Source: the human T2T-CHM13v2.0 reference genome, Homo sapiens
Assembly: GCF_009914755.1 (NCBI RefSeq)
Contig: NC_060935.1
DNA length: 64,000 nt
Reading direction: 5' to 3' (one strand)
Below are positions 42,975 to 59,449 of the stretch, piece by piece. Under the pieces are notes generated by a model. That model worked only from the letters and a program-made list of their open reading frames with translations, had not been told where the DNA came from and did no database searches. Numbering within the stretch: position 1 is the stretch's first letter; every line of letters begins with the position of its first letter. A program made the translations under genes and the position numbers.

Positions 42975-47950
<4,976 letters not shown>

Positions 47951-48214
47951 TTAGAAGAGAACAGAACCCAACCTAGTATGTTCCAGTAGTAACAGTTATT
48001 CGCATGGGGGCTGAAAACATTAAAAACAGGTGGGTGGGGTCAGAAGCTTACCTGAGAGAAAATGGAAAGGAGATGAAAACAAAAAGGACCAAGGAACAAA
48101 TGCAATGAATAGAAAACAAATATCAAGACGACACATTGTAACCAAAGCATATTGGTAATCTTGATATTAGTTATAAATGTACTAAACAATTATAGACTAC
48201 ATACAAGAAACCCA

Positions 48215-48710
48215 TTTTTGCTCATATTTATTTTATTTTGATTTTTTAATGCTGCACAAGACAATATCTATTTTTTCTTGTATTTATATGCTGCTATTTA
48301 CTGAAAGTGAGAGGGACCTTATGTGGCCTTTTTCTTTTTCTGTAGGCCACCTTAGAGCTTTCTAAATTTGGAATACTTGATCAAGCTGAAAGAAAAAGGG
48401 AGTTTCACAAAATCAATGGGGGTGGGGAGGGGAAGGCTGCTTCATTAATTATGCCCTGTGGTGGTTGATTAACTGCTTGTACAATTGTTTCACTTTTAAT
48501 AAATTACGCTTACAGTGCTCCTGCTGATGAAGGCACCTGAGCTGAATACAGTTACATCCGGGGTACAAGTGAAGGGACAGTGGCATTAGTGGCAGTTATA
48601 TCCACTAGCAGGGCCAATTCTCAGAAAAGTCGCAGCCATGTGGGCCCTGTGGGGCTTGAGAGTAGCATCCTCAGGAATAGGTGATGAGCAAATTCTGGAA
48701 AGTGGTCCCA
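48215..48710 (-). pseudogene. Processed GNAS (Gs-alpha) pseudogene fragment: last exons plus 3'UTR
   Basis: Minus strand encodes DHFPEFA (GNAS DYFPEFA), then cctgaggatgctact and cttcatcagcaggagcactgtaag (LRQYELL* region). 3'UTR matches such as attaaaagtgaaac, attgtacaagcagttaatca, ccctctcactttcagtaaa, gtgcagcattaaaaaatcaaaataaaa. No introns. Based on the recalled GNAS mRNA. Confidence 0.88.
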
Positions 48711-48859
48711 GAAGTCAGGCCTCGGCAGCAGAGCAGGTCTCAGGTGCTTGGCATGCAGTCGGCCTGCTGGCTGACACGATCTTGCCTGGGAAGCATGGGA
48801 CACAGTTCATGGGCTGCTACTGGTGGGAGCCAGGGTAATGGGGTGCACATCCACCCTCC

Positions 48860-49518
48860 TGAAACAGGTCAGGGTCACTGTTCTCTTTGTCTAAGGTATT
48901 ATCTGAGCTCGTGGTCTCACAACCAAGAAAATTAAAGAGCATGGACACAAAGGGTGAGGTTGGAGCAAAAATTTAATAAGCAAAAGAAGAAAGCTCTCCA
49001 CAGAGGAGAGGGGTCCCGGATGGTGGCCAGGTTACAGTTGAATTCAAAAGCTTTTATAAGAAACTGCTCTCATCTCCGTAACCGTTTGAGTAACTTATCT
49101 ATAAAACTGTCTGCATAACTCCCCTTATCTATACAGTTGTGGGTATGTCTGTAGGTAAGCACAAAGTACAGCTTTTTGTTTGTGTAAGTGTGGGTTTAAG
49201 TAAGCCCCCCTCCCCCCTGGGCAAGTTCCCTTGGAGCCCACCATGTACATGTCTGAAAAGGGGAGAAACTTTTTCCTGGGAGCTCGCTAATCATACAAAG
49301 AACAAAAACAGCCTCTGTGCTGGACTGTGCCTGCCTTACCTGTTTATCTGTGGCTTATCTGTACACCTGCAGTCTGAATTTTTTCCAGGCTGCTCTATTT
49401 TTGCCTGTAGCTGTGATTTTTCAGGCAGGCAGCGTCACAATTTTTCAGACAGGCAGCTTCTCCAAGGACTAGTCTGTTAGTTGTTTACCCAACTAATTTT
49501 TCCATTCCTTCTCCCTCA
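48860..49518 (-). mobile_element. ERV1-class 3' LTR (MER83/MER50 group; family uncertain)
   Basis: TG...CA termini; polypurine tract (minus aaggtgggga) immediately adjacent at 49519-49528. Confidence 0.8.
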
Positions 49519-55517
<5,999 letters not shown>

Positions 55518-56303
55518 TGTATTAATCTGTTCTCAAGCTGCTAATAAAGACATACCTGAGAATTTATAAAGGAAAGAGGCTTAATGGACTCACAGTTCCA
55601 CATAGCTGGGGAGGCCTCATAATCATGGTGGAAAGGAGAGCAGGTACAGGGGAACTCCCCTTTCTAAAACCATCAGATCTTGTGAGACTTATTCACTATC
55701 ATAAGAACATCATAGGGAAAAACCCGCCCTCATGGTTCAATTAACTCCCACTGGGTCCCTCCCATAACATGTGGGAAGTATGGGAGCTACAATTCAAAAT
55801 GAGATTTGGCTGGGGACACAGCCAAATCATATCATTCTGTCCCTGACCCCTCCCAAATACAATGCTCTCACATTTCAAAACCAATCACGCTTTCCCAACG
55901 ATCCCCCAGAGTCTTTACAAAATCATTGCAGCATTAACTTGAAAGTCCACAGTCCAAAATCTCATCTGAGATAAGGCAAGTCCCTTCCACCTATAAACCT
56001 GTAAAATCAAAAGCAAGTTAGTTACTTCCTAAATACAATAGGGGTACAGGCATTGGGTAAATACATCCATTCCAAATGGGAGAAATTTGGAGAAATTGGT
56101 CAAAACGAAGGGGCTACAGGCCCCATGCAAGTCCGAAATCCAGCAAGGCAGTCAAATCTTCAAGCTCCAAAATGATCACCTTTGGCTCCATGTTTCACAT
56201 CCAGGGTGTACTGATGCAAGAGGTGGGCTCCCAGTGCCTTGGGCAGCTCCACCCGTGCGGCTTTGCAGGGTACAGCTTCCCTCCTGGCTGCTTTCACAGG
56301 CTG
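55518..56303 (-). mobile_element. THE1 LTR (55518-55834) plus truncated THE1 internal sequence
   Basis: tgtattaatctgttctcaagctgctaataaagacatacc...gccaaatcatatca, then the MaLR internal motif gtccacagtccaaaatctcatctgagataaggcaagtccc. Confidence 0.9.
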
Positions 56304-57690: not shown

Positions 57691-57713
57691 TCTGAAAAGA
57701 AGTTAATCTCTTC

Positions 57714-59389
57714 TGAGGGTTTGGTCTTTTTTTTTTTTTTTTTTTTTTACCTTTAGTATACATGTGATTGCTATATTGTAAATGCAGGTTCCTGAAAGAC
57801 TGTTTCTGTAAGCAGAATGACGCCACACAAAGTGAAAAGGTTTTCCTCTTATTCCAGCAGTGTCTTGTCTTCAAAGAGGAGTCCATTACATCTTGCCTTG
57901 ATTTTTATGGTTGTGTTCTTGGATGGAAAGCTGAAGTGGGTAGTAATTTCCAAATGTTCTTTATAATATCCACCCTGTATATTATAAGCAAAGTTGTTTC
58001 GTATTTTGTTGTATCTTTTTCTGTTTAGCACTTTATGGCTTTTTAAGTCTACTGCATTTGAGAATGTAGTTTAGAAATTCTTTCACTGTTAAAGCCATGT
58101 GAAAACTAATAGAGGATAATGAAAGTGAGTGTACATTATTTTGTGTTTAACTTCCTGGTTTGTGGTGTGTGTAAACAAAACATTAGAAATATATTGTCTT
58201 TTTATAATAATACTCTTTGACCTCATTTAAAGTGATCTGCCATGAGGTCTCAATGATCAAGCTTATGTTTATTCTAGTGTGTTTTATTCTAATACCTAAG
58301 GAATTCAGCCAACTTTGTTTCTATCATCGGATAGTCTCAGAAAATAATGTGCTTTATCTATATTACTGCCTCTTTTCAATATTTAAGAGAATAATTGTCT
58401 TCTGGTTTCTACTGAGCCTAGTAATAATCACTAAAGACCTAAAAAAAAAGTGAGTAATCTTTTCCTTCCATTAGAGTATTTGAATAGCCCATTCAAGATA
58501 ATGGTGGTGTGAAAGTAAGTCATCCAAGCTTTTCCGCCACATCTAAATTTTTATTTAATTAATTAAATAATTAACACCCACTTCCAAAGAGTTCAAATGT
58601 TGTCTTAAAGCAGTCACTACTAATTTGCGTTAATCCTGTATATTCAGTGGATGCGAAGTCATAACTTGGTATTGTATCAGAAGTCGTGTTAGTCACTGGT
58701 CTTGCTCTTTGAACATTATTTTCATTTGTAAAATGAGGGAATTGGTTTGTTATGATGGGAAATAAGTTAATTTTAAGGGTCCTGAGAAAGTTGCTTCATT
58801 CATGGCAGTGTTTGGGATCACTTAACTTTTTTTTCAGGTATTTGGTGTCATGTTTTTGGAGTTAATGTTTGGTGCTTACATAATTTTTAATTATTACATA
58901 ATTTTTATTGGTACATGTTTACAGGTATTCTCACCAAACCAGTGGAATGATAGTCTCTCTTAATATGTTATTGCCTGCAATGGCCAAGTAGATATGCCTG
59001 AAAGTCATATGAAAGGTTTTACATGTCTATTAAAATGTGTGTGTACTTTTAAATCTGTAAATGTTATCTGGAATTTTTATTGTGTTAATTTCAGAAGTAT
59101 ATGGGCATTATGACTTTTTCATTGTACAAAAAACATTATTATATTCATAAACATTGGAATACAGAAGTTTCTTGACTGACAATAGGGCTATGTTCCAATA
59201 GACCCACTGTAAACTGAAAATACCATAAGTTAAAAATGCATTTAATACACCAAACCTACTGAACATCCTAGCTTAGCCTAACCTATCTTAAATGTGCTCA
59301 GAACACTTAATGTTGGCCTATAGCTGGGCAAAATCATCTAATACAAAACCTTTTTTATAATAAAATGTTTAATATCTCAGAAAAAAAAG
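57714..59389 (+). pseudogene. 5'-truncated retrocopy of an unidentified mRNA 3'UTR, ending in a MER47-derived poly(A) site
   Basis: 16-bp TSD agaagt(t/c)aatctcttc at 57698-57713 and 59390-59405; AATAAA at 59359-59364; A-run from 59381; AU/GU-rich UTR-like body. Confidence 0.8.
59162..59379 (+). mobile_element. Truncated MER47A-type (TcMar-Tigger) DNA transposon
   Basis: ta|cagaag...aaatgcatttaatacaccaaacctactgaacatcctagcttagcctaacctatcttaaatgtgctcagaacactta...aaaatcatctaatacaaa. The 3' third and right TIR are missing. Confidence 0.8.
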
Positions 59390-59449
59390 AGAAGTCAATC
59401 TCTTCCCCTGCCTTGTTCCTGTCCAGTCATGTTCCTAGGAAAACTAAGA

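What the first reader, a model, noticed from the sequence alone, without database searches (positions are those of the whole stretch)
48215..48710. Hidden, heavily decayed processed pseudogene of GNAS
Seen: the minus strand carries DHFPEFA, cctgaggatgctact and a stop-region/3'UTR block running to ...aaatatgagcaaaaa. Known (recalled): these match the GNAS C-terminus (DYFPEFARYTTPEDATPEP...LRQYELL*) and 3'UTR. The sequence is continuous across the positions I recall as the last two GNAS exon junctions (GAGGATG|CTACT and TTTCTG|AGGATC). Several internal deletions are apparent, one between two taag repeats at the stop codon. Inference: an old L1-mediated retrocopy, short and diverged enough to be missed by annotation.
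Basis: partly seen in the sequence, partly recalled or inferred. Interest (0 to 1): 0.7.

Follow-up and report, generated by a model that had tools for sequence, protein, structure and literature searches.

The report
Old broken GNAS gene copy
This is a broken, intron-free copy of the back half of the human GNAS signalling gene, likely pasted in from its mRNA roughly 60-100 million years ago; it is an ordinary dead pseudogene, except that its coding half has drifted toward G and C, possibly the scar of an extinct recombination hotspot.

Summary
Confirmed, and larger than reported. Window 48830-48215 (minus) is a processed pseudogene of GNAS (chr20, E 4e-69). It holds exon 6 (3' end), exon 7, the start of exon 8, a 310-nt deletion, then exons 11-13 to the poly(A) site. 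Junctions 6|7, 7|8 and 11|12 beat 200 of 200 shuffles; no intron sequence aligns. It has stops and frameshifts, only five terminal A's and no target-site duplication, so L1 origin is inferred. A younger LTR (49518-48860) lies 0-29 nt from the 5' end; exons 1-6a are absent from 84 kb searched. It is not in the RefSeq table; GENCODE and RetroGene tracks could not be checked. A second, younger GNAS retrocopy lies at chr11:56.68 Mb. One unexpected, post-hoc result: A/T-to-G/C changes hit 20 of 103 sites at codon positions 1+2 but 11 of 189 in the UTR part, while G/C-to-A/T rates are equal. This survives eight alignment settings, simulation and context stratification (P 0.007). An ancient episode of GC-biased gene conversion is the likeliest cause but is unproven. 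Ordinary object, modest interest.

The parts
48831..48859 (-). 29 nt between the LTR and the secure 5' end; possibly more of GNAS exon 6 (tentative)
   Evidence: aligns 11/19 plus 5/12 but is not above shuffles (P 0.23)
48709..48830 (-). copy of GNAS exon 6 (last 37 nt), all of exon 7 and the first 31 nt of exon 8; crosses junctions 6|7 and 7|8
   Evidence: blastn 72.6% over 124 nt, E 1e-17; junctions 21/30 and 20/30, 0 of 200 shuffles each
48708..48709 (-). junction of a 310-nt internal deletion (rest of exon 8, exons 9 and 10, 5' part of exon 11); shifts the frame; 1-3 nt microhomology; not at splice sites
48640..48708 (-). copy of the last 44 nt of exon 11 and the 5' part of exon 12; crosses junction 11|12
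   Evidence: blastn 83%, E 1.5e-11; 26/30, 0 of 200 shuffles
48513..48639 (-). copy of the end of exon 12 and the coding part of exon 13, with net losses of about 23 and 34 nt; crosses junction 12|13 at 48622/48621
   Evidence: blastn 71%, E 2e-5 for 48627-48566
48215..48512 (-). copy of the GNAS 3' UTR, starting at the single TAAG left by a deletion of about 33 nt at the stop codon
   Evidence: 85% over 220 nt (E 2e-56) and 88.5% over 61 nt (E 1e-10); TAAG at 48512-48509
48215..48237 (-). poly(A) signal AATAAA (48237-48232) and a terminal run of five A (48219-48215); the next 25 nt do not match the parent's downstream DNA
   Evidence: P 0.40
48860..49518 (-). LTR (TG...CA ends), same orientation as the copy and directly upstream; 3' LTR of a decayed provirus; TATA-like motif at 49058-49052 and ATTAAA at 48977-48972
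   Evidence: 41 matches in the genome from 40 of 448 candidates scored; ends shared with other copies; motifs
49519..55517 (-). decayed proviral internal sequence with Alu and L1 insertions; purine tract next to the LTR; no second LTR in the window (5' limit judged by eye)
   Evidence: multi-copy and adjacent to the same LTR at other loci; no LTR partner; 0 of 7 stop-to-stop frames hit Pfam
48056..48190 (.). old interspersed repeat flanking the 3' end (L1M-like by recall)
   Evidence: 7 other loci at 73-80% for 47930-48212

Best explanation
This is a disabled, intron-free copy of GNAS exons 6-13, likely made by L1 reverse transcription of the spliced mRNA about 60-100 million years ago and most likely inert since. 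Reverse transcription likely began at the poly(A) end. The 5' part was either never copied or was lost later together with the 5' LTR of a provirus that landed at or in the 5' end; the provirus is inferred to be younger. The copy then lost about 440 nt net of the parent's 1054 nt in internal deletions and most of its CpGs. Its coding-derived half also gained about three times more A/T-to-G/C changes than its UTR half. The most likely cause is a past local episode of GC-biased gene conversion (inferred, about 0.4 on its own). Shown: parent identity, spliced junctions, disablement, LTR position, substitution asymmetry. Inferred: L1 as the enzyme, absolute age, order of events, cause of the asymmetry, absence of function.
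For: Parent; intron sizes 97/104/146/252/281 equal those tabulated for GNAS in PMC12065846 (passages). GNAS rather than GNAL: at 43 sites where the two differ the copy has the GNAS base 30 times and the GNAL base 9 times, and only GNAS matches the UTR. Spliced: 3 of 8 junctions tested beat all 200 shuffles, with 0-5/15 matches to intron ends at those places; of the other five, three lie in the deletion, one is 5' of the copy and one is next to a deletion. Ends at the poly(A) site. Disabled: the longest sense ATG frame inside the copy is 45 aa. Age: non-CpG G/C-to-A/T changes 26 of 180 (0.14) versus 0.066 in 54 local Alus; window LTR versus nine other copies K2P 0.145-0.195, sister LTR pairs 0.106 and 0.137. 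Asymmetry: 20/103 versus 11/189; 8 of 8 alignment settings give P 5e-7 to 5e-3; 0 of 1200 homogeneous simulations reach it; within-trinucleotide permutation P 0.0066; GNAL equals GNAS at 10 of 10 covered position-1/2 sites.
Against: No poly(A) tail beyond five A's and no target-site duplication, so L1 is not shown. Whether the LTR cut into the copy is open (29 nt, P 0.23). Against gene conversion as the cause: G/C-to-A/T changes are not suppressed (11/82 versus 15/98); the signal is patchy along the coding half (3/19, 9/25, 4/27, 1/22, 6/25, 5/30 per 60-nt bin); the adjacent LTR end shows none (0.016); the test was chosen after seeing the spectrum; and against the genome-average ratio the UTR half is as unusually low (P 0.009) as the coding half is high (P 0.009). 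At third codon positions 3 of 4 GNAL-covered changes may be parent-side. No other mammalian genome and no expression data were available.
Confidence: 0.9

Rival explanations
1. The copy is a plain retrocopy and the GC asymmetry is a chance or context effect (finer sequence context, misaligned compensating indels, post-hoc testing), with no hotspot involved.
For: Small counts (31 events), patchy profile, stratified P only 0.0066, and both halves deviate from the genome average.
Against: Robust in 8 of 8 alignment settings and in blocks of 25 nt or more (25/119 versus 10/135, P 0.002); 0 of 1200 simulations with indels reach it; coding-part GC is still 0.56, equal to the parent, after CpGs fell from 26 to 5, in flanks of 0.38. 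The younger GNAS retrocopy shows no such skew (1/55 coding, 11/277 non-coding), though it covers other exons.
Confidence: 0.35
2. The UTR half is the unusual part: it was held back by selection (for example as an LTR-driven non-coding RNA that shares GNAS 3' UTR binding sites) or refreshed by gene conversion from GNAS cDNA, and the copy is older than the UTR suggests.
For: UTR A/T-to-G/C changes are below neutral expectation (P 0.009-0.04); UTR K2P 0.10 versus 0.26 at codon positions 1+2; the LTR is in sense orientation with a TATA-like motif and the GNAS poly(A) signal is intact.
Against: G/C-to-A/T rates are equal in both halves, which constraint or refreshing should lower in the UTR; 3 of 7 aligned UTR CpG sites changed; the LTR has its own ATTAAA upstream of the copy; the supplied table lists no gene or functional element here.
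Confidence: 0.08
3. The internal deletions arose at birth, by reverse-transcriptase jumps across mRNA structure or microhomologies, not by later genomic deletion.
For: Four net losses of 23 nt or more cluster within about 600 nt of parent sequence; one lies between TAAG repeats; one folding window paired the ends of the 310-nt segment (top 1%).
Against: The pairing sum fell to 0.0 in 3 of 6 folding windows and was weak in two more; the other three deletions show no end pairing.
Confidence: 0.3
4. The copy was made by the neighbouring LTR element (template switch inside a retroviral particle) rather than by L1.
For: An LTR lies within 29 nt of the 5' end in the same orientation.
Against: The LTR is complete and preceded by a purine tract and internal sequence, so it is a 3' LTR and the copy lies outside the provirus; the 3' flank is another repeat; LTR-made retrocopies are flanked by LTR sequence on both sides (PMC5470649, passages); the copy looks older than the LTR.
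Confidence: 0.02
5. The copy is a DNA-level duplication of GNAS or a copy of the paralogue GNAL.
For: None found.
Against: Junctions crossed and no intron alignment; 30 versus 9 diagnostic sites favour GNAS.
Confidence: 0.01

Closest known systems
Human processed pseudogenes (L1-type retrocopies)
   Same: Intron-free, ends at the parent's poly(A) site, lacks the 5' exons, disabled, on another chromosome.
   Different: Poly(A) tail and target-site duplication not recoverable; more than 40% of the spanned mRNA deleted internally; 5' end abuts an LTR.
The other GNAS retrocopy at G000:C11:56684955-56685577, probably GENCODE RP11-100N3.2
   Same: Same parent, same chromosome, spliced. PMC5896119 lists RP11-100N3.2 among seven annotated human G-alpha retrogenes (passages); PMC6487730 places it on chr11 and pairs it with GNAS (passages).
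   Different: It copies exons 1-3 plus an alternative terminal exon from intron 3, is 90-95% identical over most of its length and has an A-rich tail. Ours copies exons 6-13 and is much older. That RP11-100N3.2 is the 56.68 Mb copy is inferred (recalled map position; the G-alpha profile finds that copy but not ours); the supplements with coordinates could not be read.
GC-biased gene conversion substitution hotspots (Duret and Arndt 2008, PMC2346554)
   Same: Local excess of A/T-to-G/C substitutions with a raised total rate.
   Different: The model predicts suppressed G/C-to-A/T changes during activity; here they are equal, which needs a short old episode followed by normal decay. The branch could not be assigned.
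LTR-mediated retrocopies (review PMC5470649)
   Same: An LTR is adjacent and in sense.
   Different: LTR on one side only; the copy lies outside the provirus.

Membership tests
Processed pseudogene (retrocopy) | Homology crosses exon-exon junctions, with introns absent | tested here: met
   6|7, 7|8 and 11|12 beat 200 of 200 shuffles; 12|13 anchored 6/6 + 12/17
Processed pseudogene (retrocopy) | Homology confined to the parent's mRNA and ending at its poly(A) site | tested here: met
   In 48200-48860 only exon matches against about 28 kb of parent DNA; the next 25 nt do not match (P 0.40)
Processed pseudogene (retrocopy) | Lies away from the parent locus | tested here: met
   chr11 versus chr20
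Processed pseudogene (retrocopy) | Coding frame disabled | tested here: met
   Stops and frameshifts; longest sense ATG frame in the copy 45 aa
L1 target-primed retrocopy | Untemplated poly(A) tail | tested here: inconclusive
   Five A's, three templated by the parent; such tails are labile (PMC5470649)
L1 target-primed retrocopy | Target-site duplication | tested here: inconclusive
   No convincing match upstream in window + 20 kb; only chance-level hits at up to 3 mismatches; the 5' junction is disturbed by the LTR
LTR-mediated retrocopy | Flanked by LTR-element sequence on both sides | tested here: not met
   One LTR only; the 3' flank is another repeat
GC-biased gene conversion footprint | Local excess of A/T-to-G/C substitutions on the lineage of the locus | tested here: met
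   20/103 versus 11/189; polarity by GNAL 10 of 10; post hoc
GC-biased gene conversion footprint | Reduced G/C-to-A/T substitutions in the same tract | tested here: not met
   11/82 versus 15/98, P 0.83; later decay could mask it
GC-biased gene conversion footprint | Single peaked tract extending into flanks | tested here: inconclusive
   Patchy bins; the younger LTR replaces the 5' flank and shows no excess
GC-biased gene conversion footprint | Burst confined to particular branches or tied to a mapped hotspot | not testable with these tools
   No other mammalian genomes or recombination maps held
Expressed or functional retrocopy | Transcription and evolutionary constraint | not testable with these tools
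   No expression or conservation tracks; none listed in the supplied RefSeq table

The most novel reading that the evidence does not exclude
The copy is a fossil record of an extinct meiotic recombination hotspot. Because the G(s) alpha protein has barely changed, codon positions 1+2 give a near-true ancestral sequence. Against it, a tract of about 350 nt shows a threefold A/T-to-G/C excess together with a cluster of mid-size deletions, laid down before the LTR arrived. Old retrocopies of invariant genes could then serve genome-wide as dated recorders of ancient hotspots.
Probability: 0.35. Interest if true: 0.4.

Novelty: new member of a known kind. Interest (0 to 1): 0.22.

Why it matters
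As an object it is a small annotation gain: a second human GNAS retrocopy, the only one from the exon-13 isoform that the searches found. At about 85% identity its UTR part could cross-react with low-stringency GNAS 3' UTR probes but should not confuse read mapping (inference). If the GC skew is a hotspot scar, it is a clean single-locus example of biased gene conversion and break-linked deletion in deep primate ancestry, and it suggests a cheap genome-wide screen using retrocopies of invariant genes. It also warns that dating a retrocopy from its coding part (K 0.26) or its UTR part (K 0.10) can differ 2.5-fold.

Tried and rejected
1) Search for the 5' part (exons 1-6a) beyond the provirus: none in window + 20 kb; best score 37 against a mean of 27 over 110 segments, while the positive control scored 110. 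2) Partner LTR to date the insertion: none in the window. 3) Target-site duplication and continuation of the flanking repeat across the insertion: nothing convincing. 4) The idea that the chr11:56.68 Mb copy is the missing 5' half: rejected, since it has its own terminal exon and A-rich tail and is much younger. 5) GNAL, or a closer diverged template, as source of the coding half: rejected; the coding half alone finds only itself, in a seeded search of limited sensitivity. 6) Hairpin-guided 310-nt deletion: not robust across 6 folding windows. 7) Read-through past the poly(A) site: P 0.40. 8) Pfam naming of the provirus: 0 of 7 frames; its class (ERV1-like) is recalled, not tested. 9) The G-alpha Pfam scan of the genome does not detect this copy (108 matches, none in the window). 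10) Literature: no paper holds any of six phrases for a GNAS pseudogene, retrocopy or retrogene; 'GNAS + pseudogene + 11q24' gave 3 unrelated listings; 'GNAS + processed pseudogene' gave 26 papers, 20 listed, 2 opened. Table S4 of PMC5896119 is an image, and 11 of 19 supplements of PMC6487730 were not searched; they may bear on where RP11-100N3.2 lies. 11) Hotspot-linked deletions: PMC7615360 (passages) reports raised indel rates with microhomology at hotspots but a bias toward insertions on autosomes, which does not fit the deletion-only pattern well.

Full report
Observation. Searching the genome with window 48200-48800 gives two matches from two candidates: itself and chr20:60,693,987-60,694,321 at 78% (E 4e-69). 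The chr20 exon encodes the last 48 residues of G(s) alpha. Thirteen exons with GT-AG borders splice to a 394-codon ORF, and the sizes of introns 8-12 equal those tabulated for GNAS in PMC12065846 (passages seen), which fixes the exon numbering. The parent is GNAS. At 43 sites where GNAS and GNAL differ, the copy follows GNAS 30 times and GNAL 9 times (only exons 8, 11 and 13 of GNAL were located).

Anatomy. The copy is longer than reported. It runs from at least 48830 to 48215: the last 37 nt of exon 6, exon 7, 31 nt of exon 8, a 310-nt deletion, the last 44 nt of exon 11, exon 12, and exon 13 through the 3' UTR. Of 8 junctions tested, 6|7 (21/30), 7|8 (20/30) and 11|12 (26/30) beat all 200 shuffles, and intron ends match only 0-5 of 15 bases at the same places. 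Junction 12|13 is not significant in that test (22 of 200) because a deletion lies 6 nt upstream; anchored, it reads 6/6 then 12/17. Junctions 8|9, 9|10 and 10|11 fall in the deletion and 5|6 lies upstream of the copy. Further net losses of about 23, 34 and 33 nt sit in exons 12-13, the last between two TAAG copies at the stop codon; in all, 616 nt remain of 1054 spanned. The frame is broken, and the longest sense ATG frame inside the copy is 45 aa. The poly(A) signal is intact, followed by five A's, and the next 25 nt do not match the parent's downstream DNA.

Surroundings. A 659-nt LTR with TG...CA ends (49518-48860) lies directly upstream in the same orientation. A purine tract and about 6 kb of multi-copy internal sequence precede it, and the same internal-LTR join occurs at other loci, so it is the 3' LTR of a decayed provirus. 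Its class (ERV1-like) is recalled; Pfam named 0 of 7 frames. No second LTR exists in the window. No exon 1-6a sequence and no convincing target-site duplication were found in the window plus 20 kb. The 29 nt between LTR and secure homology may be more of exon 6 but are not above chance (P 0.23), so the provirus landed either in or next to the copy.

Age. Non-CpG G/C-to-A/T changes are 26 of 180 in the copy (codon positions 1+2 plus UTR) against 0.066 in 54 local Alus. The LTR differs from nine other copies by K2P 0.145-0.195, and two sister proviruses have LTR pairs at 0.106 and 0.137. The copy therefore looks about twice as old as the Alus and older than the LTR. With recalled Alu ages and neutral rates this gives roughly 60-100 million years. 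The estimate is rough, and parent-side changes in the UTR inflate it somewhat.

An unexpected asymmetry. The coding-derived half is more diverged than the UTR-derived half: 36/167 non-CpG differences at codon positions 1+2 against 25/262 (P 6e-4). This is the reverse of what a nearly invariant parent protein (recalled) predicts. The excess is almost all A/T-to-G/C: 20/103 versus 11/189, while G/C-to-A/T is 11/82 versus 15/98. It holds in 8 of 8 alignment settings (P 5e-7 to 5e-3), in long blocks only (P 0.002), against 1200 homogeneous simulations with indels (0 reached it) and within trinucleotide contexts (P 0.0066). GNAL shares the GNAS base at 10 of 10 covered position-1/2 sites, so these changes are on the copy's side; at third positions 3 of 4 may be on the parent's side. 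The coding half keeps GC 0.56 although its CpGs fell from 26 to 5 and the flank is 0.38. The younger GNAS retrocopy shows no such skew. Against over-reading: I chose the test after seeing the spectrum; there are only 31 events; the profile is patchy; G/C-to-A/T is not suppressed; the LTR end lacks the signal; and against the genome-average ratio of PMC2346554 (passages) the UTR is as low as the coding half is high (both P 0.009). That paper predicts GC-biased substitution hotspots at strong recombination hotspots. PMC7615360 (passages) links hotspots to indels with microhomology but finds autosomal hotspots biased toward insertions, which fits the deletion cluster poorly.

Mechanism. Shown: a spliced, disabled GNAS copy next to an LTR. 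Inferred: L1 reverse transcription from the poly(A) end; 5' truncation or later loss; provirus arrival afterwards; deletions either at birth or later (a hairpin explanation failed); and probably a short, old episode of GC-biased gene conversion, followed by ordinary decay. I put 0.9 on the retrocopy as an inert pseudogene. For the asymmetry: about 0.4 gene conversion, 0.35 chance or context, under 0.1 constraint or refreshing of the UTR half.

What is known. PMC5896119 (abstract, outline and passages; the retrogene table is an image and was not seen) names seven annotated human G-alpha retrogenes. One of them, RP11-100N3.2, is on chr11 and pairs with GNAS in PMC6487730 (passages). I found a separate, younger GNAS retrocopy of exons 1-3 plus an alternative terminal exon at chr11:56.68 Mb and infer that this is RP11-100N3.2; the coordinates were not seen. 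Searches for a named GNAS pseudogene found nothing on this locus. The supplied RefSeq table has no row here. GENCODE and RetroGene tracks could not be checked, so it may already be listed there. PMC5470649 (passages) supplied the defining features of L1- and LTR-made retrocopies.

Verdict. Observation confirmed and extended; interpretation supported; a new member of a very common kind. Interest 0.22, mainly for the substitution asymmetry.

Noticed in passing
window 57698-59405 (+): A second retrocopy not in the RefSeq table, of 3' UTR only: 86% over 1667 columns to G000:C5:169.085-169.087 Mb, about 7 kb downstream and on the same strand as the last pantothenate-kinase-family exon there (PANK3 by recalled map position). 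It has AATAAA at 59359-59364, eight A's at 59381-59388 and a 16-nt target-site duplication (15/16) at 57698-57713 and 59390-59405.
   Followed up: partly
L015:4456-5078 (G000:C11:56684955-56685577, -): Younger GNAS retrocopy of exons 1-3 plus an alternative terminal exon, 90-95% identical over most of its length, with an A-rich tail; probably RP11-100N3.2. The reported RP11-100N3.2-GNAS 'fusion' in PMC6487730, seen in 9 normal and 8 tumour samples, may be a parent-pseudogene artefact (inference).
   Followed up: partly
window 49519-56300 (-): The provirus lacks its 5' LTR; by eye its internal sequence begins next to a MaLR-like LTR near 55520-55835 (family recalled) and is interrupted by Alus at about 50705-51006 and 53976-54303 and an L1 3' end at about 51846-52620.
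   Followed up: partly
L030/L031 (chr4) and L032/L033 (chr8): Two proviruses of the same LTR family keep both LTRs, 7.4 and 10.7 kb apart, with K2P 0.106 and 0.137 between partners.
   Followed up: yes
G000:C11:50386645-50387702 (-): An intron-free pantothenate-kinase-family copy with stops and frameshifts, apparently another processed pseudogene.
   Followed up: no
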